Made by a program: the position numbers and the translations under genes. The notes under the pieces were generated by a model, which saw only the letters and a program-made list of their open reading frames with translations, searched no databases and was not told the DNA's origin. Below, in pieces: positions 14,923 to 42,910 of a stretch of 64,000 nucleotides of DNA. The DNA lies in sequence record NC_048170.1, one strand, 5' to 3'. Source of the stretch: Escherichia phage vB_EcoM_Goslar. Position 1 is the first letter of the stretch. Each line of letters starts with the position of its first letter.

Positions 14923-14952
14923 ATCATACATTCTATTAAATCGAGCGCGATT

Positions 14953-17034: not shown

Positions 17035-17038
17035 TTAA

Positions 17039-17068
17039 GAAGCTCTGCCTGACATCAGGCAGAGCTTC
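17039..17068 (+). terminator. intrinsic terminator of the helicase gene
   Basis: Long inverted repeat gaagctctgcctga/tcaggcagagcttc just after the stop, followed by a T-rich stretch. Confidence 0.55.
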
Positions 17069-17133
17069 ATGCTGTATTTGTTGCAAGATCGTATGACGTA
17101 TATGCGTCGTACTTATTTAATAGGACAGAATAA

Positions 17134-19953: not shown

Positions 19954-21528
19954 TTACAATTCAAAATCTTCATCGATAACACGCTGGGTAAGCACCTTGT
20001 CGCTGAAGAACTCCACCTTGCGCTGATGGTATTTACGGTGCGCTTCGATAGATGTACATACCAGATACCAGAACGTTGGTGTCATTCCTTCGAACTTCCC
20101 TTTCAGCTGACGTAGGCGTCCCAATACCTGAATGTTACCGGTTCGTGACCCCATCGCTAACGTCATGAACGTCATCACCAAGTCAGGGAGGTCGATACCT
20201 GTACCTGCCGATTTCACCGTCGTAACGCTGATATCGTTATCCAACAAGACCATGAAATCTTCTTCAGCAGTATAAGGACCAATCTCTAACTCAGGAATAC
20301 GTTCACTGAGATAATGCGATAACGACTTACACATATCAACGGTTGCACAATACACCAGCATCTTCATGCCTTCCTGATACTGGTTCATGAAACCTTTGAT
20401 GATAACGGTATAGATAAAGTTGAAATAGGCGAGTTTGAGTTGCTTGTTCTTCATGATAGACTGTTCGAATATCGTGTGAGAATAAGAACCCCCAAAGCCT
20501 TTGTATCTGACTTTATCTGTACTGCGTAATCGATACGTTACCGCATTTACCGCAATGTATTTCTTGTATTCGCATTTCGCATAACGTGCTTCTTTCGGAT
20601 ACATCAAATACAACATCCGTTCGATGAACGGATCGTCGGACACTGCCGTTGCTGACAGATAGATGATTTCCGGAATATTCGCGTAACACTTCACTTTGAA
20701 CAAGAAATGCAATGCTTCGTGACATTCATCATGGATTAACAACCCAATGCCTGTTTTCTCCCAGAACTCGACAGGATGGAAAACATAAGGTGCGACACAG
20801 TTGTTCTTTTCATAATCGGTTATGTATCTCTGAAACATGTTCAGCGAGAATAACGCAATTTTGAAATCCAGCTCACCTTGTTCCACCAACGTCTGGAATT
20901 CCAGCATGCTGTAACGAGGAATGTCTGGATGTGGTGGGTCAGATTGAGCTGTGCCACGTATCTCGATAACATCGCCCGGTTCCATACCGAAGAAACTTAG
21001 CAGTGAGCTACGCCAACCAGGCATGTATCTCGGTGACAGGATAATACCCGTCCGTACACCGCGTCGGAAGGTGATCTCCTGCGACATGGCTGTTTTACCA
21101 GACCCCGTGCCTGCGGTGTTTAAGCTCATTCTGAAGGGGGTATCCTTACCCCCGTCCATGTACTCCAACCATTCTTGTTGATCTTCACGCCACGGAAACT
21201 TCCATTTCTTTACGAACTCCACTTCCTTACCTGGCACTGGATCGTGATAAACGATTTCCAACCACTCTTTTCGGATTCCTCGAGAGAAGATAAAATCCAA
21301 AAACGATTTCAACTGTTCGCGGAGTAAGTATACCTCGCTATAATCGCTTCTCGCTGCGGCATACGTGTTTATGGTATCGGTAACCATTCTCCGTGTACGA
21401 GGGTCACGCCGTTTCCTCAGATGCAAACAACGGTCTCGAAGGTAATGGCCGATAAGATGGGCAAATCGAAGTCCGTATCCGCTCAGCCTCATGCCATGCG
21501 AGAAGACGTCGATACGAGCTAACTTCAT
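19954..21528 (-). CDS. SF2 DExH-box helicase
   Basis: Walker A GTGSGKT, motif II LIHDECHEA, motif VI-like GSRTGNIQVLGRLRQ. Confidence 0.6.
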   Translation of the reverse strand: MKLARIDVFSHGMRLSGYGLRFAHLIGHYLRDRCLHLRKRRDPRTRRMVTDTINTYAAARSDYSEVYLLREQLKSFLDFIFSRGIRKEWLEIVYHDPVPGKEVEFVKKWKFPWREDQQEWLEYMDGGKDTPFRMSLNTAGTGSGKTAMSQEITFRRGVRTGIILSPRYMPGWRSSLLSFFGMEPGDVIEIRGTAQSDPPHPDIPRYSMLEFQTLVEQGELDFKIALFSLNMFQRYITDYEKNNCVAPYVFHPVEFWEKTGIGLLIHDECHEALHFLFKVKCYANIPEIIYLSATAVSDDPFIERMLYLMYPKEARYAKCEYKKYIAVNAVTYRLRSTDKVRYKGFGGSYSHTIFEQSIMKNKQLKLAYFNFIYTVIIKGFMNQYQEGMKMLVYCATVDMCKSLSHYLSERIPELEIGPYTAEEDFMVLLDNDISVTTVKSAGTGIDLPDLVMTFMTLAMGSRTGNIQVLGRLRQLKGKFEGMTPTFWYLVCTSIEAHRKYHQRKVEFFSDKVLTQRVIDEDFEL

Positions 21529-23531
21529 AACGTGATTACATCCTCCGGTTTAGGTTCTTTACGCGGTAAAAGCATGTAGTCGATCGGATGATCCGGCTTC
21601 ATGGTTGGGATATAACTGTTCGGGTTTTGGAACGCATCCAGTTGCTCTTGGTGAGCGAACTTCATACTCAAGGAGCGCATGTTCATGTTCTTCTTGAAGG
21701 TACTGAAGTATCGTGTTGTTCCCTGTTTCGGCATGCGATAATCTTTCGTGTGTGGTGAACGAATCATGCTGGCGTAGAGAATAACATCGAGATGCGAAAG
21801 GTTCATTCGCAGACGCTGGGCACACAGACGATGCCAATAGTACAGCACGTTTGCAACTTCTTCCGGTGTCGCTTCGTCTTCCGAAAGGAATCCGGCACTG
21901 AAAGAACCTTTCCCGAATTTGAATTCACGTTCGATTTCTTTTGCGTATTCCATCATGTTTTTGTGGATTAACGGCATCTGGAATAACGTACGTGAATTGT
22001 CCCAATGTTTCAAGTCGAAAATCACAATCCCGTCAGACGTCACTTCCCAGCTATGGCGTTTAAGATAACGGATAAACGCTTTACTCGGGACAACGGGACG
22101 TCCACAGAAATCGAAATTGACTTTGAGCTTACGGTAGCTTTCATCTTTCCTGTCGTAAATCTCCATATCACAAAGCGTCATGTTAAACAGGCGTTGCGGT
22201 ATCAGCGAACTGATTTCTTCCGCTTCCGCTACATCGTACAACATGTTCGCAAGACCTAACTTCATCTTAATCAGCACGTGTTTACCTTTCAGCTCACGTG
22301 CGAGTTTGATGTCGTTCATATTCTGGCTGTAGCGAAGGATATGTTGATATTCCGGTGGGATTGGTGCTGTGGATACCGTTGACGAACCATCATGGTGTTT
22401 GGTAGAAAGAATGTTCTGCGTTACCTGTTGCGAACAGGTACGCGCTGCGCCATCGCCGACATTATCGGTTAGTGCGAAGTTATGACTTAATTCACCGTAA
22501 CACGTCGTACATACCCCAGCAGGATCGGGATGATGACAATAGTTAACGGAGCGCATACGCACTGTGGTGCCGATCAATTCTTTCATGTGTGGTTGTATCG
22601 CTACCAACGAACCGTCATCGCGAATAATGAATCGACCGTGGAAGCCACGCAGGTCGGTCTCATCACGGATTGGCATCGGGATGGTCTCTTTACTACCACA
22701 ATCTCCAGGATGGAGTCGTTGTACAACCGCTGTCGCTATCTGAAGTTCACGACCGAAATATTCAGACTTCTTGATCTGCTCTTTGTTGAACAGCAACGAC
22801 TTCGCCGCAGAACGACTTTCTTTCAAGCTGTCGGGAAGAGAGATCAAACCTGCCGCGTACGACCGCATTACTGGATCACGGAATATCTCGGAGTTAATAT
22901 CGGTCAAGAATCCACGCATCCCAATACACTGCAGCACCTGCCCAATCGAAACGTGTTCGGTTCGTACCGCACGCGCAATAGGGTTTGCGTGTAACGTTTT
23001 ATCGGTGCTCAGTACCTTGGTCAGTTTCTTGTATGCGCTTTCGATACCTTCACGGGTGGGTTCCGCTTCGGCGATGATTTTCTTAACTTCAGGATGTACG
23101 GTAATCTGATAAAAATCATCCGCGCAAATAGTCGTTACGTATTCCTCCAGCGCATACGTAAAGAAGTTATATACATTGTTAAACATATCGAACAATGCTT
23201 TCCAGAGAACCTCACGATTCTCTTGTGGATAAGCATACATGCATTGACGATACGCGGCGCTTTGCAACGCAACCGACGAACCAGCAGTAAACTTGCGTTT
23301 ATCGACCAGGTTCTCTTTTGTCAATGGTGTCTCAGGATACATGCGATGCACAGACCAGTGCATGTAACTAAAGAAAATGCGTCGCGCACGCAATTCATGA
23401 ACGCCATCGTCCATCTCGATATATACACGGTCATTAGGCTGTGCCCACTCGAATACTTCATCAACCGGCCAGTGCATAAGCTCGCGTGCCCTCACACGAC
23501 GTTTCGTGGTGGTCGTCTGTGTTATAGTCAT
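21525..23531 (-). CDS. multisubunit RNA polymerase beta'-like subunit, C-terminal part
   Basis: MRSVNYCHHPDPAGVCTTCYGELS parallels bacterial beta' RSVVSCDTDFGVCAHCYG, followed by a degenerate bridge-helix region. Confidence 0.55.
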   Translation of the reverse strand: MTITQTTTTKRRVRARELMHWPVDEVFEWAQPNDRVYIEMDDGVHELRARRIFFSYMHWSVHRMYPETPLTKENLVDKRKFTAGSSVALQSAAYRQCMYAYPQENREVLWKALFDMFNNVYNFFTYALEEYVTTICADDFYQITVHPEVKKIIAEAEPTREGIESAYKKLTKVLSTDKTLHANPIARAVRTEHVSIGQVLQCIGMRGFLTDINSEIFRDPVMRSYAAGLISLPDSLKESRSAAKSLLFNKEQIKKSEYFGRELQIATAVVQRLHPGDCGSKETIPMPIRDETDLRGFHGRFIIRDDGSLVAIQPHMKELIGTTVRMRSVNYCHHPDPAGVCTTCYGELSHNFALTDNVGDGAARTCSQQVTQNILSTKHHDGSSTVSTAPIPPEYQHILRYSQNMNDIKLARELKGKHVLIKMKLGLANMLYDVAEAEEISSLIPQRLFNMTLCDMEIYDRKDESYRKLKVNFDFCGRPVVPSKAFIRYLKRHSWEVTSDGIVIFDLKHWDNSRTLFQMPLIHKNMMEYAKEIEREFKFGKGSFSAGFLSEDEATPEEVANVLYYWHRLCAQRLRMNLSHLDVILYASMIRSPHTKDYRMPKQGTTRYFSTFKKNMNMRSLSMKFAHQEQLDAFQNPNSYIPTMKPDHPIDYMLLPRKEPKPEDVITL

Positions 23532-23676
23532 TATTGCTTTCCGATTTAAATGGTTTTATCATACGGTTTACCAAATCCGTTGGACTTTACTATCGTTGTG
23601 ATAGCATTGGGAATCCCTTCCCTTAGGTTATGTAGGTGTTAATATATCTCCACTGCTGACCTTTATGTCGGCAGCA

Positions 23677-24162
23677 TTATCCAGCTTTCTGTTGTAAAGC
23701 GTATGGATCCATAGCGTCTGACATATCCGCAAAAACGGTGAGAATAAACCCCTTTATCTGTCTCACCTCGGTTACACGAAGCCCTTTATCATTGCGATAT
23801 ACGTTTTCTTCACCGACTAACTTTGGTCGAATAACATAAACTCCATCAACAAGCGGGAATGTCGGATACGGATAAATACCAATACGAATGATGTTTGGGC
23901 GATCGCCTAGAAGGTCACGTCCAAACTTATCGACTCGACCATAAATCGCCCCATCCGCACCTTCCACCTCAATGAGATCGTTTCGAATATCCTGAAATAG
24001 CTGCTCTAACGTGTCGGCGGGATACGCATATGCGACGCCTAACGCTGGATCCTCAATGGTTTTGACACTGAATCCGTTAAGCCAAACAATCCGTTCATCC
24101 GCCCATGTTTCTTCATATACCGTTAATCCATCGCCGTATATGTTGGCGTGTGCTATCTCCAT
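23677..24162 (-). CDS. hypothetical protein
   Basis: 161-aa ORF. Confidence 0.45.
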   Translation of the reverse strand: MEIAHANIYGDGLTVYEETWADERIVWLNGFSVKTIEDPALGVAYAYPADTLEQLFQDIRNDLIEVEGADGAIYGRVDKFGRDLLGDRPNIIRIGIYPYPTFPLVDGVYVIRPKLVGEENVYRNDKGLRVTEVRQIKGFILTVFADMSDAMDPYALQQKAG

Positions 24163-24319
24163 AATCTCATTTCCTCTTATACGTTAGGATAGATGACATG
24201 TTTGATATACGTTGCCTTTGCATATATTGCTTTATTTCCGTCAGAAATAACGGAAAATAAAAACAACGACATAGTTCCCTCCCACCTCCACATGGGAGAG
24301 GGAGGGCTATTCGTGTTTA

Positions 24320-24682
24320 TTACTCTATGCTGTCTTCTTCAGCACAATCCTCTTCTGAACCATCGAACGTTTTCTGCACTGCAGTGGTATCCCAGTTGGC
24401 AGCGTAATCAGCCATCGCTTCGCGCAGTGCTTCCTCACCAGCATCACCGGCCAGGTCAAGTACAACCAAACCTTGCGCGACGTTTTGAGCGACAGTATCA
24501 ATAACGGTCGCATCTTCTTCAAAACTACGTACCGGTTCAATGGTGCCTACATCAACAGCATAGTTCGTGGTCGCTGTAAGCACGGCGACTTGTAGCGCAT
24601 CACTATCTTCATCGTGCAATGCTGCTTCAATACCGATTGGACGGGCCAGTTCTTGTAGTGTTAATTTGCGAATTAAGTTCAT
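24320..24682 (-). CDS. hypothetical acidic protein
   Basis: 120-aa ORF, Asp/Glu rich. Confidence 0.4.
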   Translation of the reverse strand: MNLIRKLTLQELARPIGIEAALHDEDSDALQVAVLTATTNYAVDVGTIEPVRSFEEDATVIDTVAQNVAQGLVVLDLAGDAGEEALREAMADYAANWDTTAVQKTFDGSEEDCAEEDSIE

Positions 24683-24704
24683 TATGTTTTTCCTCAGGTG
24701 AATG

Positions 24705-25055
24705 TTAGCAATCGTTTAAAACTTTTTCGATACGATGGTTGACGAATTCATTGAACGACTCTTCGGCTTGTTCGATAATTTCATCAACATCGATATCTAA
24801 TTGTTGGGGTTGGATGACATGCTCTTTCATGGTTTCTAGCCAGTATTCGGCTTTAACCATAACGTTAGCGACTTGTTCGACCTGACTGCGTATGTCGACG
24901 ATCTGGCAATCAGGATTGTTAATATCGATGATGTGTCCGTGGTGTTTGATAAACCCTAACTTATTCGACGCCCTTACCGCATCGCGGGCAAGCTCTTGCA
25001 AGATTAAATTATTTACATAGTTCACTGCTATGGAACGACTTTCTTTATCACTCAT
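24705..25055 (-). CDS. hypothetical protein
   Basis: 116-aa ORF. Confidence 0.4.
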   Translation of the reverse strand: MSDKESRSIAVNYVNNLILQELARDAVRASNKLGFIKHHGHIIDINNPDCQIVDIRSQVEQVANVMVKAEYWLETMKEHVIQPQQLDIDVDEIIEQAEESFNEFVNHRIEKVLNDC

Positions 25056-25174
25056 ACCAGGGATCCTCTTTTAAGTGTTCACATTCTAGTGTTAAGCAGT
25101 TAAAATAAACCGTCCCTTTAATCAGCATAAACATCCTCCTCCCACCACATGGGCAGGAGGAGGCGTAATATGCA

Positions 25175-25585
25175 TCAGAAAGGAGGACGATCTTTAAATT
25201 CTAACAACGTGTCTTCGAAGCAAGCGATGAGTTCAGACTGTAATTCGGTACGGCCTTGTTCACCGAAGAGTTCCAGCAACATTAACCCCCGAGCGGTCTT
25301 CGTAGCAACCTCTTCGCAGATGCGGAGATCGTGAACTTCATCATCGTTGACATCTTTACGCAACTGTGCCGCAATGGGCTTAAGATTGCCGTTTTCATCG
25401 TGTTCGTCACGAAATGCATCATAAGCCGCATCGATGTTCGCGATCCGTGTCAATCCTTCAGAATCCCGCCAATCTCGATATAATCCAAGAAGACGATTAT
25501 GATTCTTCGTTTTGACGTTCGGTGCTGGAAGGTTGCGCAACAGATGTGGCGTAATCATTGCTATCACGCTATCCGAATGATTCAT
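25175..25585 (-). CDS. hypothetical protein
   Basis: 136-aa ORF. Confidence 0.4.
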   Translation of the reverse strand: MNHSDSVIAMITPHLLRNLPAPNVKTKNHNRLLGLYRDWRDSEGLTRIANIDAAYDAFRDEHDENGNLKPIAAQLRKDVNDDEVHDLRICEEVATKTARGLMLLELFGEQGRTELQSELIACFEDTLLEFKDRPPF

Positions 25586-25596
25586 CGTATACCTCG

Positions 25597-27765
25597 TTAG
25601 CTTTCGCAGTCATCTGCGTCGATGATTTGTCCGCCAGCAACGTTCAGCTGATGATACAGAATCCTCAACGCACGGTTGCCACCAATGGGATACTTCTCGA
25701 AGTTGGTTGCAATAGGAATCGCTGACGGCTTATCGGTCGCATAGATACTTTCAGTGATGCTATCCACCTGTTTTGGATTGTTCGCATAATCCATAAAGAC
25801 GCTTGCGAACCATCCGCCAGCAAAGGCGGTAACTTCGCGATGTTCAGATTCGCCACAGTAACGAGTTGGTTGCTCTTTACCCGGAGAACTGTATTTATCG
25901 CTATTACTGAGTTTCGACGGTAATCCATGCGCTTGCAATTTAGGAATACCCACAGCCGACCAATCGTTCGCCGTCTTCTCCAACATCATGATGTACGTGT
26001 CACCGATCGCAATATCGTTCTTGGTTGTCCGCCACTGCCCAGAACGCCCACGGTATCGTACAGGACCTTTCTTCAACGGGAACTCACGAATCAGATTCTC
26101 CATACGTTCTGAACCTGCTGCGATACTGTCCGTCGGGATATAAACTTCCGTACCGTGGCGTTGTACATACCGTAAATGATCCCATTTATCCTCATCCGTG
26201 ATACAGTATTTTTCAACAACCTGTTCCACGAATTCAGGACTGACGATATAGTAGTAACGCATTAGTGTGTTCCAAGCGGTCTCCAGATCGCCTGCATCCA
26301 TCACTGGTTTCAGTTCACGCATGATCTGATCGCCAACACCGTTGATGTAAGGTGCATTAACACGACTTAAACTCATCCTTTTGATTACCGTGCTATCGTC
26401 AAACATAAAGTCTGCAACGTTACCCCATTGGTCAACCGGCATCTCATCATCTTCCATGATGTCGGTTACGACGAATTTATCACCCGCCATACCAGTGAAT
26501 TTAAACCCGATACCTGGAACAACGTCGTACGTGTACGTGATGGTCACACGCCAATCATCGAGATTCTCTTTGCGGTAATCGCGGGTCGGTAACACATGAC
26601 GTAGCTGTCCATTAGGATTGCGGATATCAATACCATGTTCAGCATCAGCCAGGTTCAACCACCACATCACCGTTTGATGATGACGTATCGGCGTACCAAC
26701 GCGTTCACGTTCATACTTACGAACAGCATCCTGAATTCGGGTGTAAAGCAAACCGATTGCGTTCTCGTATTTCAGGAATTGACGATACGGAGGACGCATC
26801 TTCTCTTCCATCATAATCGCACGCTCGCGGGCTTGACGTCCAGAACGACGATGCCGGTCGCTGACAACATCGATATCCGTTACACGCGCATTCGGTTCAG
26901 CGTAAGTGAGGTCATCGTAAACATAATCCACACGCTGAAGATTACACGTCATCATGTCAACAACGCTGAGGATAGGATCTATTTCGCGTGTTGCTGCAAG
27001 TAACCCATCTTTACGAATACGCTCACCGTTCTCGGGTATTGCTTGATATACCTCATCATCGCCGTAGAGATTGATTGGGTATCGCGATTTACCTGATGTG
27101 ATTGTTCGCTTCTCAATGCCGGTACTGGTGAAATGTTTCAATACACCACGACGGGCAACACCACCATCCTCGATACACTGATAGAAGCTACCGAAACACA
27201 CTTTACAATCGCGACCGTAACCCCACTCGCGTGTTTCTTGATTGATCGCTGGGCTTTCCATCAAACGAGAATATCGCGGTACGATCTGGCCTCGACGGAG
27301 GGAATGGAACAAGTTGGTTGGTCGAAAACGGAAACCGTACTGCTGATGCATGATGTGATGCTCAGGCACTTCAAGCAAGCGTAGTTCGTGGCGGTTACCA
27401 TCCTCTTGGTTTTCATACAGCACGTAATGCATCGTGTTTGTTTTGATGCTGTTTGCTGTATGCCCCGGTTGGAAACGTGGGATGATATCTATGATGCGAG
27501 ATTCGACTGGAAACTCTACTGACCAAGTGTTCTGTCCGTACTGGTATTCAATCCCCGTCGTTAGTCGGGACGGTTTCGCATCTTTGATAACCAACGCTTG
27601 GCTAAGATGTCCACCAAACATCGCAGCGCGCTGTGCTGAGTTATAATGCAATAGCCCGTTAAGTCCAGTCCCTACGCCAGTATACTCCTGTTTAATGGGA
27701 ATGATTTTACCTTCAGCGATTGCCTGCTTCACAGATTCATAAAGAGGTTTTTCTTTATAATGCAT
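25597..27765 (-). CDS. multisubunit RNA polymerase beta-like subunit, C-terminal part
   Basis: GDKFVVTDIMEDDEMPVDQWGNVADFMF parallels beta GDKMAGRHGNKGV...EDMPYDENGTPVDIVLNP; YIMMLEK/GESEHREVTAF parallels YMYMLKL/GEMEVWALEAY. Start set at MHYKEK (ATG 27765, AGGAAG upstream) rather than the Ser/Arg-rich extension to 27930. Confidence 0.55.
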   Translation of the reverse strand: MHYKEKPLYESVKQAIAEGKIIPIKQEYTGVGTGLNGLLHYNSAQRAAMFGGHLSQALVIKDAKPSRLTTGIEYQYGQNTWSVEFPVESRIIDIIPRFQPGHTANSIKTNTMHYVLYENQEDGNRHELRLLEVPEHHIMHQQYGFRFRPTNLFHSLRRGQIVPRYSRLMESPAINQETREWGYGRDCKVCFGSFYQCIEDGGVARRGVLKHFTSTGIEKRTITSGKSRYPINLYGDDEVYQAIPENGERIRKDGLLAATREIDPILSVVDMMTCNLQRVDYVYDDLTYAEPNARVTDIDVVSDRHRRSGRQARERAIMMEEKMRPPYRQFLKYENAIGLLYTRIQDAVRKYERERVGTPIRHHQTVMWWLNLADAEHGIDIRNPNGQLRHVLPTRDYRKENLDDWRVTITYTYDVVPGIGFKFTGMAGDKFVVTDIMEDDEMPVDQWGNVADFMFDDSTVIKRMSLSRVNAPYINGVGDQIMRELKPVMDAGDLETAWNTLMRYYYIVSPEFVEQVVEKYCITDEDKWDHLRYVQRHGTEVYIPTDSIAAGSERMENLIREFPLKKGPVRYRGRSGQWRTTKNDIAIGDTYIMMLEKTANDWSAVGIPKLQAHGLPSKLSNSDKYSSPGKEQPTRYCGESEHREVTAFAGGWFASVFMDYANNPKQVDSITESIYATDKPSAIPIATNFEKYPIGGNRALRILYHQLNVAGGQIIDADDCES

Positions 27766-27796
27766 AGGACTTCCTATTATCGAATTGAGGTACGTC

Positions 27797-28150
27797 ATGT
27801 CTAACACGCCCCTGAACGACTTTCTTAAGACAAACCCCGATGACCTCATCCACGATCTTGATTTCAGGAACGTTGTTGAGATGCATCTGGAATATTTCAA
27901 AAATGCCGGACTGGTCTCTACGATAGACATACCACCCGAACGCGCCTACGAATTCGATGGTAACTTTTATGGATTGTGTCGTGTTCTGCTCGGCGAGGGT
28001 AGCGAACCAATGCACTGGATCACCCTGAGACTCAATGGTTATCGCGACCCTACGGAATACACCGCCGATGTTCTAACCATGAAGATTGTCGATACAAGCG
28101 CAATCAACACATTAAAACAACAGTACCGCACAATCCACTACAGCGCTTAA
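27797..28150 (+). CDS. hypothetical protein
   Basis: ATG 27797 with GAGGT 6 nt upstream; 117 aa; followed by GC hairpin. Confidence 0.4.
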   Translation: MSNTPLNDFLKTNPDDLIHDLDFRNVVEMHLEYFKNAGLVSTIDIPPERAYEFDGNFYGLCRVLLGEGSEPMHWITLRLNGYRDPTEYTADVLTMKIVDTSAINTLKQQYRTIHYSA

Positions 28151-28215: not shown

Positions 28216-29496
28216 TCAGAAACGATTTACAGTACGTCCTGTCCACGCGCTCAGGATGTTGTTACGTTCCATCTCAGCACGACGACGTAAACCGTTTGGC
28301 GACTGCGGTGCTGGCGGCATCCCCCATCCGGCAGGTTGCATGCCCATGCCCGGCCAAGCAGCATTATTGAACATCGTACCGTTACGTTCCGCAACACGGT
28401 TCATCAACGCATCAAACGTGCTATTACCTGCCGGTTGGTTACCACCACTTTCCCACTGATTAGGTTGGACAGGTGCGGTTTTACCTAACAGGTTATCGAT
28501 CACACTGCCTGTTGCAGCAGGACGCGGTTGCATACCTTCATGTGCGGCTGCCGATGGATTTGGCTTAACCGTCGGCTGTGGACGACTGTTCAGCGTTACA
28601 CCCATGTTGTATTTCGCTGGCGGAATCTGACCACGATGCTGATTAATCGGTTCAAAATCCTCGACCCAGGTAACATCGCAATAACCGTTCTCTTTACCGT
28701 CGTACTTATCACCAAACAGTTTGATGAGATTGTTCAGCGGTTCCATCAGCTTAGCGAAGCTGTGGATAAGACAGTCGAAATACGGAGCATGGGGATCGCT
28801 TGACCCAGCGTTGTACGTTTCGCTTACTTCACCCGCGTGCGGGATAACATACTCAACCAGGTTTCTCAGCATGTTAAGATCTTTCTTGGAAATCTCAACA
28901 CCACACCAATACGTTTTCTTATCTTTCGTGCTGATGTGTTCTTCTTCCATGAACGGGAAAGTAACGACCGCAACGCGGGTCATCTTCTTACCCATGTAGG
29001 TTGCACCAGTACGACGAAGATAAATTTTGGACAGCGTATACGGCGTATCACGTTTCAGCCAAACGGTGACCAGTTTGCCCAGGGTCGTTAGTGTTTTATC
29101 GCTGGCGTCCGCAAGGATGTTGAAGAACTCTTTTTGCTTCGGCCCGAAACGTTTTGCTTCTTTAGGATTGATTGCGGTTTCAACCATCCAAATCAGCATG
29201 GAGCATAGCGTGGCATTAAAACGAACAACCATCGCACGACGCAGGAACTGAAGGACTTCCGATTCGCCGTTCATCACGTCTTCACTTAGCGGATGGAACA
29301 ACACGCGTTCAGCTAACTGATTTCCGGTACGAACTTCAGAAACCGGCATCAACAACGGCATGCTTTCCACGGTAGCGGCAACTGCAACAACTTTACCATC
29401 CCCATCCGTAAAACGATATTCTAATTCGTGGGCGTCATTCTCAAAATAGTTAACGCTCTGTAGTGCTTTGCGATAAGCTTCGATAAGCTTCGACAT
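28216..29496 (-). CDS. hypothetical protein
   Basis: 426-aa ORF with Gly/Pro/Met-rich C-terminal region. Confidence 0.5.
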   Translation of the reverse strand: MSKLIEAYRKALQSVNYFENDAHELEYRFTDGDGKVVAVAATVESMPLLMPVSEVRTGNQLAERVLFHPLSEDVMNGESEVLQFLRRAMVVRFNATLCSMLIWMVETAINPKEAKRFGPKQKEFFNILADASDKTLTTLGKLVTVWLKRDTPYTLSKIYLRRTGATYMGKKMTRVAVVTFPFMEEEHISTKDKKTYWCGVEISKKDLNMLRNLVEYVIPHAGEVSETYNAGSSDPHAPYFDCLIHSFAKLMEPLNNLIKLFGDKYDGKENGYCDVTWVEDFEPINQHRGQIPPAKYNMGVTLNSRPQPTVKPNPSAAAHEGMQPRPAATGSVIDNLLGKTAPVQPNQWESGGNQPAGNSTFDALMNRVAERNGTMFNNAAWPGMGMQPAGWGMPPAPQSPNGLRRRAEMERNNILSAWTGRTVNRF

Positions 29497-29551
29497 ATTG
29501 TATTTCCTTTTCTTTACGTCAACGGTCCCCCTACAACAGGGGACCTATGGA

Positions 29552-31138
29552 TTAGAAGTTGCCTTTGGTAGTTACCGCATCCACCAGGTTAAACAAATCA
29601 ACACTCAGCTTATACACCTCCTGCTGGCTACGGTTGAGCAGCGGGCTGTATGCGGATGGGTTGATGTTCGGCATGGTGTACGGAATAGGTGCAGAGCCGT
29701 CAACGCTGATCTTGAACTGGCTGTCCAGGAACAGGTTAATCGCGCCGCTCACCATAACCGCATTCGGGTTGTTACCCAACATGGAGGGTAGGATATTGGT
29801 AATCATGTCAGAACGCATTTGTTCAGCAGCACGGTTACAATCGTATCCTTTAATGAACGGTACAGCGTCGGTAACCGCAACCGCCCACTGACCAGGCATG
29901 ATACCGAGTTCTGGGTGACCATGGTTGTCAGCAATGAAACGGAACGACTCCAACATGCGATACGTCATCGCAGCAGGCATCATCGCAGCAAGCGATGAGC
30001 AATACAGCGTTGGATAATCGATCACGTCCCAGCTCTGGCTGTCGGTCGGCATCCAACCAAACTCGGTGGTTGCTGATGTACCACGACGAGCTTCCACATA
30101 CGGGAATAACGTTAAGACGTCACGGATATGTTCACCGAACATCCGTTTCATGTCAGCCCAACTCAGGCTGCCGCTGAAAGCGAATCCTTCATCACGCATA
30201 ATCGCACCGAATACCGGATGTGCAACCAGCGGTTCTTCACGAACAGCTTGAGCGGCTTCTACGTAAATATCCTCGTTCTCTGCGCTACCTGGATGAGACC
30301 CGCTTTCGTACGTCTGACGAATAGCCCCAACATTATCGAAGGCTTTTCTCAGATAGATGGTTGGGATGTTCGTATCGGCACTAGCTGGTTTGATTTTCTC
30401 TGTTGCGAAACACATTGCTGCTTCCACACCACGGAAAACCGGTTCCGGTTGCGGTGGGTAGGATGTACGATGAACCACGTCAGCGTAGGCGGGATCGAAC
30501 TGCTGCATTACGTTCTGCATGGCTGGGTCCATGAACTGGTTATCAAAACCACCATTGCCCACCCAACGTGCTGTCGATGCATAAGTCAGCGTATCCTGAA
30601 CACGAGTACTGAACTGAACATCGCGATTAACAGGGTCGTACGCACCGGTCAAAAGGTTCGTTGCGTCCATCGGGGTCGCGCGAACGATTTGCTTACCGAA
30701 CATGTCCGTTGTGGTTGTTTCGGTTACCTGGATTACGTTCGTGAAGAAGAACACCAGTTCATTCGGCAGATCGATAGCACGCGTTGTAAACGCATCGAGG
30801 CTTACAGAATGGTCGGTGTATCCAGAAATGTAATGGACACGCTTGGTTCCTGGTGCAAGGGCCAAGGATTCTTCTACAGCCATCATGAAATGGAAACGAC
30901 GTGTGCCCCAACCATTCGCAATCTCCGAAACCCCCTCAGGTTCTGCAGACTGCTGCAACAAACCGGTTGCAAGCTTATTGATTGCTGATGGTGTTGTTGC
31001 CGTACCGAACCGCGTCGTGTTAATAAAGTCTTCGATGCTACGCATGCTATCTGCGTGGAATCGTAGTGGACGACGTTGTACGTTGTTGTACGGTGCGGTT
31101 TCAACCATCAGTATTTCACGAACATTCATCGGGATCAT
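29552..31138 (-). CDS. hypothetical protein
   Basis: 528-aa ORF. Confidence 0.5.
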   Translation of the reverse strand: MIPMNVREILMVETAPYNNVQRRPLRFHADSMRSIEDFINTTRFGTATTPSAINKLATGLLQQSAEPEGVSEIANGWGTRRFHFMMAVEESLALAPGTKRVHYISGYTDHSVSLDAFTTRAIDLPNELVFFFTNVIQVTETTTTDMFGKQIVRATPMDATNLLTGAYDPVNRDVQFSTRVQDTLTYASTARWVGNGGFDNQFMDPAMQNVMQQFDPAYADVVHRTSYPPQPEPVFRGVEAAMCFATEKIKPASADTNIPTIYLRKAFDNVGAIRQTYESGSHPGSAENEDIYVEAAQAVREEPLVAHPVFGAIMRDEGFAFSGSLSWADMKRMFGEHIRDVLTLFPYVEARRGTSATTEFGWMPTDSQSWDVIDYPTLYCSSLAAMMPAAMTYRMLESFRFIADNHGHPELGIMPGQWAVAVTDAVPFIKGYDCNRAAEQMRSDMITNILPSMLGNNPNAVMVSGAINLFLDSQFKISVDGSAPIPYTMPNINPSAYSPLLNRSQQEVYKLSVDLFNLVDAVTTKGNF

Positions 31139-39621: not shown

Positions 39622-39846
39622 TTAGCAATGGGTGTTAGTTGCTTCTATTTCGTCAAGATAAGGTTCTACGTCATCGCCCTCCACGAATTCGTTGAACCAG
39701 CAGTCAATGGTAGAAATAACCGGTGACTGGTGTTCACATTTCTTAGATACCTTAAAAGGTACGTTATTATCCATCATACCGAGTTCGGGTCGAAAACGCC
39801 CGAAATGTTTCGCAGTCCAAATGTCTGGGACGATATGGTTGTTCAT
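39622..39846 (-). CDS. RNA polymerase beta'-like N-terminal subunit, proposed exon 3
   Basis: Begins MNNHIVPD, aligning with beta' QMAVHVPL right after the catalytic DFDGD; in frame with proposed exons 1 and 2. The exact 3' splice site is uncertain. Confidence 0.45.
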   Translation of the reverse strand: MNNHIVPDIWTAKHFGRFRPELGMMDNNVPFKVSKKCEHQSPVISTIDCWFNEFVEGDDVEPYLDEIEATNTHC

Positions 39847-40201
39847 CGTGGTGTTCAGCATGAGTCGCTACCTCATACCCGCAGCTTTACCTGCAGCTTC
39901 CGGTGTTACCGGAATGTCCAGAATACATCTTATCCATATTCCAAATGGAACGTAGGACTTCCGCGCTGGATCTCGCTTGAGACCACGTATTCGTTGAACG
40001 TTCTCCTGAACGGAGCTTCGCTGCTGATCGAACATTGTCGCGTACGGTAGGCGTCCCCGAAGGGATTGTCATTGAAGCCGCGTACATCCGCTACCTTGTT
40101 TCTACCTTATCGGTTCCTCTTACGAGGCGTAGCGGCCTTAGCCCTTCCCAGCAATTCACGGAATCCAAGCTCTTCCTTTCGGAAGGCAGGGCCTATGATT
40201 A
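39847..40201 (-). ncRNA. putative group I intron 2 (ORF-less)
   Basis: Minus-sense elements in canonical order: P-like GAATTGCTGGGAAGGG (40157-40142), Q-like CAGCAGCGAAGC (40026-40015), R-like GTTCAACGAATACG (39999-39986), S-like AAGATGTATTCTGG (39931-39918). R/S pair as GAATAC/GTATTC. GAAA and UUCG tetraloop hairpins; ends in G at 39847. Confidence 0.5.
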
Positions 40202-40214
40202 AGCGTCACCGTCG
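40202..40214 (-). CDS. RNA polymerase beta'-like N-terminal subunit, proposed 13-nt mini-exon (encodes D-G-D-A)
   Basis: Minus-sense CGACGGTGACGCT supplies GAC GGT GAC; joined to exon 1 (...GAC TT) it restores NADFDGD. Confidence 0.4.
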
Positions 40215-41654
40215 CTTACGTGCACCGACGTTTATTAACTCATGGTTATCCACTGAAATACGGCGTTAGGGAAATAATCCTTCTTGCCGCGTTTTGAGAT
40301 TTGCAATGCCATATTACTCGGAGACAATCTGTAATGCCATGCTGCTTCATCGATAGAACTAAACTTCTTTGTTTCACCGTTATCAAAGATGATTTTCAAC
40401 GCCAGTTTAGGTAAATCGTCTTCCGTTTCTACTAATTCGAAAGAATCGATATTCTCTGCCAGCGTCAACGGATCAACTGGTAATATCAGCCAACCAGCAC
40501 GCTGCAATCCTCCACGTAGACTAATTTGTTTATTCAACGCAGGGGTAGCCATGCCAACTAACTTAGCAGCCAGCTTGCGGTCTTTAATATAAAGACGATA
40601 ATCTCCGGTATTATTAATAGCATACACACCAAAGTTATTGAACGATACCTTTCCAGCATCGGAACTAGTAAAGCCTACAAAGTCGTGGCTGTCGGTAGCC
40701 ACGTCGTATTTAAATGCTAATGGCTTGTTTCGACTGCCGCTAAGATACTTCTTGGCTGTAGATACCGATATGTTGAGATATCGTCCAATAGCATTCAAAC
40801 TTTCTAGTTCGATGATTTCTCCTGTCAATATGTCCTTTAACCGAACATTACCCATCGGTATTGGTGGTTTACCGACATAACCCAATTCACGATATGCGTG
40901 TTTCAAGTTATCTGAATCAGTAGCCCATTCCAAATTTTCTAGTCTGTTATCCCAACGCACCCCATTAAGATGATTAGGGACACGACGGATTATACCTGAC
41001 GTCGGATCTGGGTTAAATGTTTCAAGGACAATCTGATGATGGTATTTCACTTTATTGTTCCTAGTGAAAGCGCGATAGTTGTTTTTGCCCGACTTGGGTG
41101 GTTCAGTACGAAACAACACTGTCAGACTAGACACATCTACTATCGTACCGTTCTTATTAACAACGATACCATCAAAACCATTAACAGGACGATAATCAGA
41201 CAAACAATCTTCAGAAATTGCCTGTCCAACTAAAGGTTCACTCAATTTGACCTCCTTTATAAAAGAAGTCGGTGCACGTAATTATCGACTATATCTTCAT
41301 CCTCGTTGCGAGGAGTCTCCCGTTTTGGTCTGTGTTTAACAGAGCCTACTCTACTCGACATCGCGTCTTTCGATAGTCTGTGAGCACACATCTTAACGAA
41401 CATTCGTGGATTCCTAAACAGGTGAACGTTCTTGTTGAGATGCTTCGCTGCGGATTATTCCCGTCCTACCTCTTTTACCCTACCCAGTTCATTACGCTGG
41501 CCCTCATCTGTGTCACCACGATGAGTTGGTGTGTAGTCCGATTACAGAAACTTCCCGTCAATTAGAGAGTTTTAACTACGTTCCTGTTACCAGAAACCCG
41601 ACTCCGACGATATCAATAAATCAACGTAAGTTATTGATTTAATTGAAGAAACTG
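40215..41654 (-). mobile_element. putative group I intron 1 carrying an HNH homing endonuclease gene
   Basis: Minus-sense P AATTGACGGGAAG (41563-41551), Q AATCCGCAGC (41456-41447), R CTCACAGACTATCG (41384-41371), S AAGATATAGTCGA (41297-41285). Candidate internal guide GAGTCGG (41604-41598) pairs with the exon 1 end CCGACTT with G-U at the splice site. 14-bp inverted repeat (41268-41281 and 40216-40229) encloses the ORF; terminal G at 40215. Confidence 0.6.
40235..41245 (-). CDS. HNH homing endonuclease (intron-encoded)
   Basis: KYHHQIV...VPNHLNGVRWDNRLENLEWATDSDNLKH matches the HNH motif; C-terminal helix-turn-helix-like regions; TTG start 5 nt after AAAGGAGGT. Confidence 0.75.
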   Translation of the reverse strand: MSEPLVGQAISEDCLSDYRPVNGFDGIVVNKNGTIVDVSSLTVLFRTEPPKSGKNNYRAFTRNNKVKYHHQIVLETFNPDPTSGIIRRVPNHLNGVRWDNRLENLEWATDSDNLKHAYRELGYVGKPPIPMGNVRLKDILTGEIIELESLNAIGRYLNISVSTAKKYLSGSRNKPLAFKYDVATDSHDFVGFTSSDAGKVSFNNFGVYAINNTGDYRLYIKDRKLAAKLVGMATPALNKQISLRGGLQRAGWLILPVDPLTLAENIDSFELVETEDDLPKLALKIIFDNGETKKFSSIDEAAWHYRLSPSNMALQISKRGKKDYFPNAVFQWITMS

Positions 41655-42910
41655 AAGTCGGCATTATAACCTTTGAGGATCATCACGCTTAACCCGATGG
41701 TGTTATCCTGCGGATCGCGTTTAACCTTGGTGATTTCAAGACATTGGTTACTGCTTCGGTCAAGTGATGGGTTTCGAACAAAGCCACACACAATCCCATC
41801 GAACGGTGTATCAGCAATAAGCTCATCGTGCAGCTCGCTCATCATCGGATGATAATTACGGACATGTTCCGCAACGAACGCACGTGCTGCTCTCGGTGAA
41901 TAACCACGATGGAATAACTTGGATTGGATATGTTCTTTATTGGTTAAAGTAAATGGTGCGTATGGGAAATGCAGATGATAATAACGATGGTTCGCTGTTA
42001 TCGAACTGATTACAGTACGCGTGGTGAATGGATGTAATGTACCTAATATGTTTTTACGTGTAATACCTTTCTTCTTACCGATGAACTCATCGAAAATCGC
42101 CGCGTGGTATTGCAGCAGCTTCAATTGCACTTTCGCCATCCAGTTTTCTTTCTTTCTGGCGCTCAAAGGTGTTGTTGGATGATAGATACTATTCAACGTA
42201 CCGATAGCATCGATCGCACCTTCCATTTTGCTATCTGCATAACGACCGGTCGGCGTATTTTCGATAACGAACATCATGGCCGCAGGAAAGCTGATATACT
42301 GACTGAAGAACTTATCACGATGGATTCGGATGAATTCTCGTAGCGTGTCAACTTTCTCCGTGTTCTTCGGTCCACGTAACGTAGGTCCTTTATACAAGAT
42401 CTCCATGATGCGATCGAAGTTCTGTATAAAGCTATTTACGCCACGACGTATCCCGAATACATCGAATTGCTGCTCCAGATAGTTCTTGAGTTCGATGGGT
42501 CGTTTTACATTTGGACGGTAACTGGCATCAATGAGCCACGTCATCGTTTCAAAGCTTTTGATATTCAACTCGCTTGCCAGCACGAGATGGACCAACGGGT
42601 TAATGAACGCATCGATTCCTTCAGGAACACGCGCCCAAACCGTCGAACGAATCTCTTGTTCTGCTGGGTAGGTTACAACCGTTTTACAGTTTGGACACAC
42701 CGTGCCGAGTAGCTCACCACGATTGTAGAAACCACAACCACATTGTGGTGTGATATCCAACGTATCGCTGGAATAAACACGGGTGATAAAACTGTTTAAT
42801 TTCTTCTTCTCTTCGACGACTTTTGTATCGTAATCGTTCAACAAAATCGGCGTAAAAGGAAGTTCTGCGAGCTGTCTATCGAAACTCACGATATCGAGCA
42901 TGATGGCCAT
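41655..42910 (-). CDS. RNA polymerase beta'-like N-terminal subunit, exon 1
   Basis: Zinc ribbon CGCGFYN...CPNC; GITRKNILGTLHPFTTRTVI parallels [20 protein letters not shown]; ends ...LKGYNADF. The unspliced ORF then reads SFFN-stop. Confidence 0.7.

What the first reader, a model, noticed from the sequence alone, without database searches (positions are those of the whole stretch)
21525..27765. Split multisubunit RNA polymerase genes scattered through the window
Besides beta'-N, ORF 21525-23531 carries the beta' C-terminal GVCxxCYG segment and ORF 25597-27765 carries the beta GDK...DEMP and YIMMLEK/GE.E..A segments with the usual RHGNKG deleted. These are highly diverged split subunits typical of phiKZ-like phages. 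Which of the phage's two polymerases each belongs to cannot be told from the sequence.
Basis: partly seen in the sequence, partly recalled or inferred. Interest (0 to 1): 0.55.

Follow-up and report, generated by a model that had tools for sequence, protein, structure and literature searches.

The report
Goslar phage non-virion RNA polymerase genes

Summary
Both ORFs are real split RNA polymerase subunit genes. ORF 21525-23531(-) is the full-length ortholog of phiKZ gp74 (beta'-C; PDB 7OGP_D, E 1e-86). ORF 25597-27765(-) is the ortholog of phiKZ gp71-73 (beta-C; 7OGP_C, E 1e-85).

- RHGNKG is not deleted. GFKFTGMAGDKFVV aligns without gaps to E. coli GDKMAGRHGNKGVI, and both active-site lysines are kept.
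- The polymerase can be told from sequence. Both genes belong to the non-virion enzyme. They do not resemble the phiKZ virion subunits, and they lie in a block collinear with phiKZ gp25-gp75.

That block also holds beta'-N (gp55-like), the fifth subunit (gp68-like), chimallin and PhuZ. Beta-N (gp123-like) and all virion-polymerase genes lie outside the window.

An exact protein match names the source as Escherichia phage vB_EcoM_Goslar, so this is already known biology.

One new detail emerged. The beta'-N ORF stops inside NADFDGD because two group I introns, one carrying an HNH endonuclease, flank a 13-nt micro-exon (40202-40214). Sister strains show five insertion sites within about 31 nt and up to three introns at once. 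Every arrangement splices in silico to the same 497-aa protein.

The parts
21525..23531 (-). nvRNAP beta'-C subunit gene (668 aa), ortholog of phiKZ gp74. By homology it holds the bridge-helix and trigger-loop region and a Cys4 zinc site.
   Evidence: phrog_3015 at 4.7e-170, residues 11-658 of 668. PDB 7ogp_D (PHIKZ074) at 1.3e-86, residues 11-654. Aligns to E. coli beta' 733-947. An identical protein is listed in 104 blocks of the public assembly collection.
22494..22517 (-). GVCTTCYG segment. With C278 (GDCGS, 22692-22706) and C332 (NYCHH, 22530-22544) it corresponds to the second beta' zinc site.
   Evidence: Aligned with E. coli DCGT...C...GVCAHCYG; coordinates. phiKZ gp74 has a Zn-finger in the structure paper (PMC8287921). 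The identification with E. coli C814/C888/C895/C898 rests on my own knowledge.
25597..27765 (-). nvRNAP beta-C subunit gene (722 aa), ortholog of spliced phiKZ gp71-73. It is uninterrupted here.
   Evidence: phrog_3295 at 2e-180. PDB 7ogp_C at 1e-85, residues 88-767 of the 777-aa ORF. phiKZ gp71 at 3.6e-44 and gp73 at 7e-39. Start codon supported.
26467..26508 (-). GFKFTGMAGDKFVV, the diverged counterpart of E. coli beta GDKMAGRHGNKGVI (1063-1076). K422 and K430 are the two active-site lysines.
   Evidence: Gap-free HMMER alignment. K422, G428 and K430 are invariant in 21 homologs; most have HGGKG, while the window and relative P0071 have AGDKF. phiKZ K386/K394 are described as the conserved lysines (PMC8287921).
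31140..32726 (-). gp68-like fifth nvRNAP subunit (528 aa; the mechanical ORF extends to a GTG at 32861).
   Evidence: phiKZ gp68 at 4.4e-31. PDB 7ogp_B / 9rjs_B (PHIKZ068) at 7e-28, residues 68-563. phrog_3209 at 1.6e-67. Called as 528 aa on sister contigs. Met at residue 46.
41655..42910 (-). nvRNAP beta'-N gene, exon 1 (gp55-like), ending ...GYNADF with the last codon split (GAC TT|). The mechanical ORF 41639-42910 reads on into the intron.
   Evidence: phiKZ gp55 at 4.1e-63. PDB 7ogp_A ('PHIKZ055,PHIKZ056.1', 508 aa) at 5e-62, aligned up to NADF. phrog_2987 at 2.3e-117.
40215..41654 (-). Group I intron A (1440 nt). The ribozyme core lies at about 41645-41269. The guide sequence GUCG-GAGUCGG lies at 41608-41598. 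The HNH/NUMOD endonuclease ORF is 40235-41245; by my reading of the sequence it sits in the loop of a 14-bp stem just before the terminal G.
   Evidence: RF00028 at 46.9 bits, E 3.1e-10, full model 1-253. The allele in L014 scores 54.8 bits, above the gathering score of 50. P/Q/R/S elements and guide sequence located. Pfam HNH_3 and NUMOD1 pass their cut-offs. The HNH ORF is cleanly absent in strains L006 and L015.
40202..40214 (-). 13-nt micro-exon CGACGGTGACGCT, encoding (F)DGDA: two of the three catalytic aspartates.
   Evidence: Sequence. Splicing in silico gives ...GYNADFDGDAMNNH..., matching intronless relatives P0002 (...GYNADFDGDAMNHH...) and P0003 (...AYNADFDGDEMNNH...).
39847..40201 (-). 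Group I intron B (355 nt, no ORF). The guide UCAU-A-GGC lies at 40198-40191.
   Evidence: RF00028 partial hit at 16.7 bits, E 0.055 on the small search. P, Q, R and S core elements are in order. Paralogous copies in L016 give full-length RF00028 hits at 26-30 bits. The shared fold has 26 of 82 pairs with compensatory changes.
39622..39846 (-). beta'-N last exon (74 aa, MNNHIVPDIW...THC*), homolog of phiKZ gp56.1.
   Evidence: Gene callers report it as separate 74-81-aa ORFs.
23677..25585 (-). Four small genes (136, 116, 120 and 161 aa) between beta-C and beta'-C. phiKZ has none here (gp73 and gp74 are adjacent).
   Evidence: No PHROG or Pfam family. No paralogy among them. Conserved in four sister contigs. 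phiKZ layout.
27797..28150 (+). Opposite-strand 117-aa gene between the gp70-like and beta-C genes. It fixes the beta-C start at 27765.
   Evidence: phrog_3455 at 5.9e-21. GAGGT lies upstream of the ATG by my reading. Called as 117 aa on sister contigs.
28216..31138 (-). gp70-like (28216-29496) and gp69-like (29552-31138) genes of the conserved nvRNAP block.
   Evidence: phiKZ gp70 at 2.2e-23 and gp69 at 1.6e-18. By position, the PhiPA3 counterparts gp64 and gp63 are nucleus-associated proteins (PMC11077065).
19954..21528 (-). gp75-like helicase immediately downstream of beta'-C, overlapping it by 4 nt.
   Evidence: phiKZ gp75 at 5.1e-51. phrog_16 at 6.4e-26.

Best explanation
ORF 21525-23531 and ORF 25597-27765 encode the beta'-C (phiKZ gp74-like) and beta-C (phiKZ gp71-73-like) subunits of the non-virion multisubunit RNA polymerase (nvRNAP) of Escherichia phage vB_EcoM_Goslar or a near-identical strain.

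They sit in the conserved chimallivirus early-gene block: SbcD, gp66, ChmC/gp67, gp68, gp69, gp70, beta-C, beta'-C, helicase. The window also holds the gp68-like fifth subunit and the beta'-N gene. The beta-N (gp123-like) gene and all virion-RNAP genes lie elsewhere in the ~239-kb genome.

By homology with the solved phiKZ enzyme, I infer the following. The five polypeptides assemble into an alpha/omega-less enzyme. Beta'-N supplies the DFDGD magnesium site. Beta-C supplies the second double-psi beta-barrel with two lysines. Beta'-C supplies the bridge helix, trigger loop and zinc site. The gp68-like protein acts as an integral sigma-like promoter-binding subunit. The enzyme is made from early transcripts and carries out middle and late transcription inside the phage nucleus.

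Shown here: homology, orthology, synteny, and retention of key residues. Inferred from phiKZ work: assembly, timing, localisation and activity.

The beta'-N message must in addition be spliced twice. Group I introns A and B flank a 13-nt micro-exon, and both must be removed to restore DFDGD.
For: - Full-length matches to the phiKZ nvRNAP chains 7OGP_D, _C, _A and _B at 1.3e-86, 1e-85, 5e-62 and 7e-28.
- PHROG RNA polymerase families at E<=1e-117.
- Discrimination from virion paralogs and one locus per phage genome in tblastn.
- Window genes from 63769 down to 19954 are collinear with phiKZ gp25...gp75.
- K422, G428 and K430 are invariant in 21 homologs.
- The zinc cysteines and the bridge/trigger region align with E. 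coli beta'.
- The exact protein is named 'RNA polymerase beta subunit [Escherichia phage vB_EcoM_Goslar]'.
- nvRNAP composition and the roles of gp55, gp68, gp71-73, gp74 and gp123 come from PMC8287921. The conserved block with ChmC comes from PMC11077065.
- Introns: RF00028 hits, intronless homologs that span the junction, guide sequences and core elements, covariation, and six strain configurations that all splice to one 497-aa protein.
Against: - No expression, proteomic or biochemical data for this phage were examined.
- Absence of these proteins from the virion is inferred from orthology only.
- The canonical beta motif is unusually diverged. The His of (R)HG(N/G)KG is Ala and the final Gly is Phe, unlike most relatives. 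A change in catalytic detail cannot be excluded.
- Beta-N was not found in the window, so the full subunit set was not verified.
- Intron A scores just under Rfam's gathering score in the window (46.9 against 50), and intron B scores weakly (16.7 bits).
- Splicing itself was not observed.
Confidence: 0.93

Rival explanations
1. One or both ORFs belong to the virion-packaged RNA polymerase (phiKZ gp80/gp149/gp178/gp180 set), which transcribes early genes.
For: Both enzyme sets are split beta/beta' homologs, and short motifs alone (GVCxxCYG, DEMP) do not separate them.
Against: - gp80 scores only 0.0037 over 67 residues, against 8.1e-91 full-length for gp74.
- gp149 is not reported at all for the beta-C ORF.
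- No window ORF hits gp80, gp149, gp178 or gp180 at E<=0.01.
- Synteny matches the nvRNAP block.
Confidence: 0.03
2. The beta-C gene is a decaying or catalytically altered paralog, because its RHGNKG motif is lost.
For: The window has MAGDKF where cellular enzymes have RHGNKG and most phage relatives have HGGKG.
Against: - The alignment is gap-free, and both lysines plus G428 are invariant.
- The ORF is intact and full-length relative to 7OGP_C.
- A 99%-identical representative stands for 163 member sequences.
- The gene is called at the same 722-aa length in all four sister contigs examined.
- By my knowledge, Goslar is a viable, cultured phage with only one such gene in the conserved block.
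Confidence: 0.03
3. The beta'-N gene is split at the protein level into separate polypeptides (423 aa plus 74-79 aa), or is a pseudogene, rather than being restored by RNA splicing.
For: Public gene calls list the pieces as separate ORFs. The family is already split into several polypeptides.
Against: - The DGD codons lie in a 13-nt segment with no start codon, which cannot be translated on its own.
- Both intervening sequences carry group I core elements, a U before the 5' splice site, a terminal G, and P1/P10 guides that match the flanking exons.
- Relatives at 61-64% identity have one continuous ORF across the junction.
- The phiKZ ortholog is a fusion of PHIKZ055 and PHIKZ056.1 in the solved structure.
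Confidence: 0.04

Closest known systems
phiKZ non-virion RNA polymerase (gp55, gp68, gp71-73, gp74, gp123; PDB 7OGP/7OGR/8QUE/9RJS)
   Same: - Four of the five subunits have full-length orthologs in the window, in the same gene order.
- Both lysines, the zinc cysteines and DFDGD (after splicing) are retained.
- The beta'-N gene is interrupted by an HNH-bearing intron at the NADFDGD codons, as in phiKZ.
   Different: - Only about 30% identity, as seen for beta'-C in tblastn.
- Beta-C is uninterrupted here. In phiKZ, gp71 and gp73 are separated by the gp72 HNH gene within this same motif (gp71 ends ...FKMTDFHG).
- The motif is MAGDKF rather than FHGGKG.
- Four extra small genes lie between beta-C and beta'-C.
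- Beta'-N has two introns and a micro-exon, at sites different from the single phiKZ site (APN|ADFDGD).
Bacillus phage AR9 non-virion RNA polymerase (PDB 7S00/7S01/7UM0)
   Same: A split beta/beta' phage enzyme. It is the second-best PDB match for beta'-C (1.3e-13), beta-C (3.4e-17) and beta'-N (about 3e-8).
   Different: Much more distant, with only partial alignment. AR9 keeps GRYGNKG. By my knowledge, AR9 is not a chimallin-encoding nucleus-forming phage.
PhiPA3 gp210 HNH intron in a virion RNAP beta gene (Birkholz et al. 2024, PMC11620839)
   Same: A group I intron with an HNH endonuclease, inserted next to conserved catalytic aspartate codons of a chimallivirus RNA polymerase gene.
   Different: That intron lies in the virion polymerase gene and is a single intron. 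Here the non-virion beta'-N gene carries two (window) or three (sister strains) introns with micro-exons. No competition phenotype was tested here.
Multi-intron phage genes: Twort orf142 (three introns) and the phiNIT1 rNDP reductase large subunit (small exon between two introns; PMC11878797)
   Same: Several group I introns in one essential phage gene. A small exon between two introns has been seen experimentally.
   Different: Here the exons are 11-18 nt, five insertion sites fall within about 31 nt, and the arrangement varies among otherwise about 98%-identical strains.

Membership tests
Chimallivirus nvRNAP beta'-C subunit (phiKZ gp74 family, phrog_3015) | Full-length sequence homology to gp74 | tested here: met
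   7ogp_D at 1.3e-86, residues 11-654 of 668. phrog_3015 at 4.7e-170, residues 11-658.
Chimallivirus nvRNAP beta'-C subunit (phiKZ gp74 family, phrog_3015) | Region homologous to the beta' bridge helix/trigger loop, and the Cys4 zinc site | tested here: met
   Aligns to E. coli beta' 733-947. DCG, C332 and GVCTTCYG are conserved.
Chimallivirus nvRNAP beta'-C subunit (phiKZ gp74 family, phrog_3015) | Closer to the non-virion paralog than to the virion paralog (gp80) | tested here: met
   gp74 at 8.1e-91 against gp80 at 0.0037.
Chimallivirus nvRNAP beta'-C subunit (phiKZ gp74 family, phrog_3015) | Protein absent from virions and part of the five-subunit complex | not testable with these tools
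   Needs virion and complex proteomics.
Chimallivirus nvRNAP beta-C subunit (phiKZ gp71-73 family, phrog_3295) | Full-length homology to spliced gp71-73 | tested here: met
   7ogp_C at 1e-85. phrog_3295 at 2e-180.
Chimallivirus nvRNAP beta-C subunit (phiKZ gp71-73 family, phrog_3295) | Two conserved active-site lysines (phiKZ K386/K394; E. coli K1065/K1073) | tested here: met
   K422 and K430 align and are invariant in 21 homologs. PMC8287921.
Chimallivirus nvRNAP beta-C subunit (phiKZ gp71-73 family, phrog_3295) | Family consensus HGGKG between the two lysines | tested here: not met
   The window has AGDKF: His replaced by Ala and the last Gly by Phe. P0071 shares this and P0070 shares it in part. 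This is a lineage substitution, not a deletion.
Cellular RpoB (Pfam RNA_pol_Rpb2_6) | Pfam gathering score reached | tested here: not met
   16.3 bits against a cut-off of 23.4. It is a homolog but too diverged to be filed under the cellular family model.
Virion RNAP subunits (phiKZ gp80, gp149, gp178, gp180) | Significant similarity of any window ORF to these proteins | tested here: not met
   No hit at E<=0.01. The remaining ORFs of at least 150 aa hit no RNA polymerase PHROG.
Group I intron (Rfam RF00028) | Covariance-model score at or above the gathering score (50 bits) | tested here: inconclusive
   Window intron A scores 46.9 bits (E 3.1e-10) over the full model. Its allele in L014 scores 54.8, and another intron in L013 scores 55.3. 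Window intron B scores 16.7 bits, and its paralogs in L016 score 26-30 bits.
Group I intron (Rfam RF00028) | U before the 5' splice site, terminal G, and an internal guide pairing with both exons (P1/P10) | tested here: met
   - Intron A: exon CCGACUU pairs with GAGUCGG, and GUCG pairs with CGAC.
- Intron B: GCU pairs with GGC, and UCAU pairs with AUGA (pairings read directly from the sequence).
- 13 of 14 introns across strains have U at -1, and all 14 end in G.
Group I intron (Rfam RF00028) | Self-splicing that yields ligated exons | not testable with these tools
   Needs in vitro transcription and splicing, or RNA-seq.
HNH homing endonuclease, I-HmuI-like | HNH_3 and NUMOD1 domains above the Pfam cut-offs | tested here: met
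   HNH_3 31.1 bits (cut-off 24.8) and NUMOD1 24.0 bits (cut-off 22.8) for ORF 40235-41245. Similar to phiKZ gp56 and gp72.

The most novel reading that the evidence does not exclude
The roughly 31 nt that encode KGYNADFDGDAM in the nvRNAP beta'-N gene are a hot spot where several group I intron lineages compete in Goslar-like phages.
- Five distinct insertion sites occur among near-identical strains, and phiKZ adds a sixth.
- A strain can carry up to three introns at once.
- Micro-exons of 11-18 nt carry the catalytic aspartates.
- HNH endonuclease ORFs are gained or lost.
- The window strain has two introns and a 13-nt micro-exon. The gene calls and source names I could see treat the pieces as separate ORFs.

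By analogy with PhiPA3 gp210, the endonucleases could act in competition between co-infecting Goslar-like strains.
Probability: 0.75. Interest if true: 0.5.

Novelty: already known. Interest (0 to 1): 0.27.

Why it matters
For the finding as given, the value is in correct annotation.
- The two ORFs can be named nvRNAP beta-C and beta'-C.
- The neighbouring 528-aa gene can be named the gp68-like fifth subunit.
- The 'truncated' 423-aa beta'-N ORF in public records should be annotated as a three-exon gene.

Anyone expressing Goslar nvRNAP recombinantly, as was done for phiKZ, needs the spliced 497-aa beta'-N sequence. The annotated ORF lacks two of the three catalytic aspartates.

The intron hot spot offers a natural panel for study. 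It consists of near-isogenic strains with 2-3 introns, with or without HNH genes, at sites 2-13 nt apart. It could be used to study how group I ribozymes fold and splice around 11-18-nt exons, and whether intron endonucleases mediate interference between co-infecting nucleus-forming phages of E. coli and Salmonella.

Tried and rejected
- Megablast of 21000-28000 against the phage collection gave no match. The collection evidently lacks Goslar-like genomes, so identity came from an exact-protein cluster look-up instead.
- Pfam alone is nearly blind here. Rpb2_6 scores 16.3 bits, below its cut-off, and nothing matches beta'-C.
- Rfam at gathering thresholds found nothing in the window. E-value mode was needed.
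- My first guess for the last exon's start (39869...RLMLNTTM...) was wrong. Intronless homologs moved it to 39846.
- I rejected a single-intron model (41654 to 39847) because it would delete DGD from the protein.
- I rejected a micro-exon upstream of the HNH ORF, near the second 'cgacttc' at about 41266-41260, because no DGD codons are there.
- An exact look-up of the chimallin ORF found nothing, probably because the called start differs.
I reached the variant loci through the gp59-like neighbour instead.
- The four small ORFs at 23677-25585 gave no family hits and no paralogy.
- I ran no structure prediction, because the sequence matches to solved phiKZ chains are already full-length.

Full report
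**Observation**

The window's minus strand carries ORFs at 21525-23531 (668 aa) and 25597-27930 (777 aa mechanical ORF).
- AGGAAG lies 4 nt upstream of that ATG.
- The stretch 27797-28150 is occupied by an opposite-strand gene matching phrog_3455 at 5.9e-21.
- Gene callers on four independent ~239-kb contigs give 722 aa.

The quoted motifs are present: GVCTTCYG at 22494-22517, GDK...EDDEMP at 26437-26508, YIMMLEK at 25975-25995, and GESEHREVTA at 25825-25854.

**Identity of the two ORFs**

Pfam barely sees them. Rpb2_6 scores 16.3 bits, below its cut-off. Phage-specific and structural libraries are unambiguous.
- phrog_3015 scores 4.7e-170 and phrog_3295 scores 2e-180; both are 'RNA polymerase beta subunit' families.
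- The best PDB sequence matches are phiKZ non-virion RNA polymerase chains. They are 7OGP_D (PHIKZ074, 1.3e-86, residues 11-654) and 7OGP_C (the PHIKZ071-073 fusion, 1e-85).
- AR9 nvRNAP chains come second, and cellular beta'/beta a distant third.

According to the phiKZ structure paper, gp55 and gp74 are the beta'-like pieces and gp71-73 and gp123 are the beta-like pieces. gp68 is an integral, sigma-like fifth subunit. The virion enzyme is gp178/gp149/gp180/gp80 (PMC8287921).

**Which polymerase**

I extracted phiKZ proteins from NC_004629 and searched them against all window ORFs.
- The beta'-C ORF hits gp74 at 9.2e-89. With all filters off, it hits the virion paralog gp80 at only 0.0037 over 67 residues.
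- The beta-C ORF hits gp71 and gp73 (1.4e-42 and 3e-37). It does not hit gp149 at all.
- tblastn against 50,697 phage records finds exactly one place per genome.

Gene order settles the question. Window genes from 63769 down to 19954 are collinear with phiKZ gp25 (TerL), gp32, gp39 (PhuZ), gp42, gp49, gp50 (DNA polymerase), gp52, gp54 (chimallin), gp55, gp56 (HNH), gp59, gp62, gp64, gp65 (SbcD), gp66, gp67, gp68, gp69, gp70, gp71-73, gp74 and gp75 (helicase).

This is the conserved chimallivirus block described for PhiPA3, with ChmC next to the nvRNAP genes (PMC11077065). The window therefore contains four of the five nvRNAP subunits:
- beta'-N, starting at 42910
- the gp68-like subunit, 31140-32726 (7OGP_B, 7e-28)
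- beta-C
- beta'-C

No gp123-like beta-N gene and no virion-RNAP gene is in the window.

**'RHGNKG deleted'**

HMMER aligns window residues 420-433, GFKFTGMAGDKFVV, without a gap to E. coli beta 1063-1076, GDKMAGRHGNKGVI (rpoB taken).

In fact both lysines are kept. E. coli K1065/K1073 and phiKZ K386/K394 correspond to K422 and K430. In an alignment of 21 homologs, K422, G428 and K430 are invariant. Most relatives read HGGKG. The window and its 66%-identical relative P0071 read AGDKF, and P0070 reads HGGKF. This is a lineage-specific substitution of unknown consequence, not a deletion.

**Source**

The exact 423-aa product of ORF 41639-42910 is named 'RNA polymerase beta subunit [Escherichia phage vB_EcoM_Goslar]'. 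It also occurs in many Salmonella, E. coli and Shigella assemblies. The exact beta'-C protein is listed in 104 blocks of the public assembly collection, on contigs of about 229-239 kb.

The finding therefore concerns a cultured, published chimallivirus, and its RNA polymerase genes are already recognised. The phage BLAST collection simply lacks it.

**What turned up beyond the finding**

The beta'-N ORF ends ...LKGYNADFSFFN*, inside the universal NADFDGD motif. The phiKZ counterpart in the structure is a fusion 'PHIKZ055,PHIKZ056.1'. In the phiKZ genome the two parts flank the gp56 HNH gene, with exon 2 reading ADFDGDQLNL....

In the window, an HNH/NUMOD ORF (40235-41245) follows the ORF. A gp56.1-like reading frame lies at 39622-39846. 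Between them, just after the HNH stop codon, sits CGACGGTGACGCT (40202-40214).

Joining 41655 to 40214 and 40202 to 39846 gives ...GYNADFDGDAMNNHIVPDIW... and a 497-aa protein. Uninterrupted homologs from metagenomes read ...GYNADFDGDAMNHHSAPD... (P0002, 64% identity, 496 aa) and ...AYNADFDGDEMNNHIPPD... (P0003).

*Intron A (40215-41654)*
- It matches the Rfam group I model over its full length: 46.9 bits, E 3.1e-10. Its allele in strain L014 scores 54.8 bits, above the gathering score.
- Its 5' splice site follows a U, and it ends in G.
- The sequence 41608-41598, GUCG-GAGUCGG, can pair with the start of the micro-exon (CGAC, P10) and the end of exon 1 (CCGACUU, P1, with a U.G pair at the splice site) (pairings read from the sequence).
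- By my reading, the HNH ORF lies in the loop of a 14-bp stem (UUACGUGCACCGAC / GUCGGUGCACGUAA) just before the terminal G.
- The ORF is cleanly absent in strains L006 and L015, where the intron is 376 nt.

*Intron B (39847-40201)*
- It scores weakly (16.7 bits), but it contains the P, Q, R and S core elements in order.
- Its guide UCAU-A-GGC matches exon AUGA and GCU.
- It has diverged paralogs in strain L016 that give full-length RF00028 hits (26-30 bits).
- Those paralogs share a fold in which 26 of 82 pairs show compensatory changes.

**Strain polymorphism**

Ten loci retrieved through the neighbouring gp59-like gene fall into configurations with different intron sets. Together with the window there are six configurations, and all splice in silico to the same 497-aa protein. 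The insertion sites are:

| Site | Strains |
|---|---|
| GGG T\|AT | L012, L013 |
| AAC GCT\|GAC | L016 |
| GCA GAT\|TTT | L013 |
| GAC TT\|C | window, L012, L014, L015 |
| GAC GCT\|ATG (GCC\| in L016) | all |

phiKZ uses yet another site, AAT|GCT.

L012 and L013 carry three introns at once, with micro-exons of 13+13 nt and 11+15 nt. L016 has an 18-nt exon. Thirteen of the 14 introns have U at -1, and all 14 end in G.

I found no description of Goslar introns in the papers searched. Known relatives of the phenomenon are:
- the phiKZ and PhiPA3 RNA polymerase introns
- the three-intron gene of phage Twort (cited)

This makes it a new instance of a known kind.

**Mechanism**

Shown here:
- homology and orthology
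- synteny with phiKZ
- conservation of the key residues
- intron anatomy

Inferred from phiKZ work:
- The five polypeptides assemble without alpha or omega subunits.
- The gp68-like subunit is needed for the active centre and for promoter binding.
- The enzyme carries out middle and late transcription in the phage nucleus.

Inferred from group I intron rules:
- Both introns must self-splice, or splice with help, from the beta'-N message to restore the magnesium-binding triad.
- The HNH enzyme promotes intron spread, and possibly interference with intronless co-infecting relatives, as shown for PhiPA3 gp210.

**Verdict**

Two sub-claims are wrong. The genes are already known (Goslar nvRNAP). 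The unannotated twin-intron and micro-exon structure of the partner beta'-N gene, with its strain-level hot spot, is the only part with some novelty.

Noticed in passing
window 39622-42910 (-): The beta'-N (gp55-like) gene is a three-exon gene. Exon 1 is 41655-42910, the 13-nt micro-exon is 40202-40214 (CGACGGTGACGCT, encoding DGDA), and the last exon is 39622-39846. They are separated by group I intron A (1440 nt, with an HNH ORF) and intron B (355 nt). The gene calls and source names I could see list the pieces as separate ORFs (423 aa and 74-81 aa).
   Followed up: yes
L012-L016 and L006 (sister strains); homologous to window 39847-41680: Intron hot spot. Among about 98%-identical Goslar-like strains there are five insertion sites within about 31 nt of the KGYNADFDGDAM codons. 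Strains carry two or three introns, with micro-exons of 11, 13, 15 or 18 nt. Three different HNH ORFs (336, 326 and 320 aa) are present or absent. All configurations splice in silico to the same 497-aa protein.
   Followed up: yes
L008 12420-13121 and L010 (sister strains); the corresponding point in the window is about 21090 within helicase gene 19954-21528: In some strains the gp75-like helicase is 753 aa instead of 524 aa. The extra 227 aa sit in-frame inside the Walker A motif (GSGK|AIPLNTP...IVTHN|TAMSQ), which looks like an intein. The window strain lacks the insert.
   Followed up: partly
window 23677-25585 (-): Four small genes (136, 116, 120 and 161 aa) lie between beta-C and beta'-C, where phiKZ has none. 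They have no PHROG or Pfam family and are not paralogs of each other. They are conserved in four sister contigs.
   Followed up: partly
window 27797-28150 (+): A 117-aa gene on the opposite strand lies inside the otherwise minus-strand nvRNAP block (phrog_3455, function unknown). The mechanical extension of the beta-C ORF to 27930 overlaps it and is not coding.
   Followed up: partly
window 14905-18585 (+): A plus-strand island in a minus-strand region. It holds an SNF2/ResIII-type helicase (709 aa) and a 483-aa protein with DUF7941 and DUF285 domains, which matches virion structural protein PHROGs.
   Followed up: no
window 3633-4652 (-): The thymidylate synthase ORF (339 aa) matches phrog_160 end to end but is about 60 aa longer than the matched profile span. 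Other ThyA profiles match in two stretches. This suggests an internal insertion.
   Followed up: no
whole window / public collections: Proteins identical to those of the window occur on ~229-247-kb contigs in many Salmonella, E. coli, Shigella and Enterobacter isolate assemblies and in gut-type metagenomes. Goslar-like phages therefore seem to be frequent passengers in enterobacterial cultures. The phage BLAST collection has no nucleotide match to this region.
   Followed up: no
window 26467-26508 (-): In phiKZ, the gp72 HNH gene interrupts beta-C within this same motif (gp71 ends ...FKMTDFHG). In the window the site is unoccupied and the motif has diverged to MAGDKF. Whether this divergence relates to escape from a homing endonuclease was not tested.
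   Followed up: no
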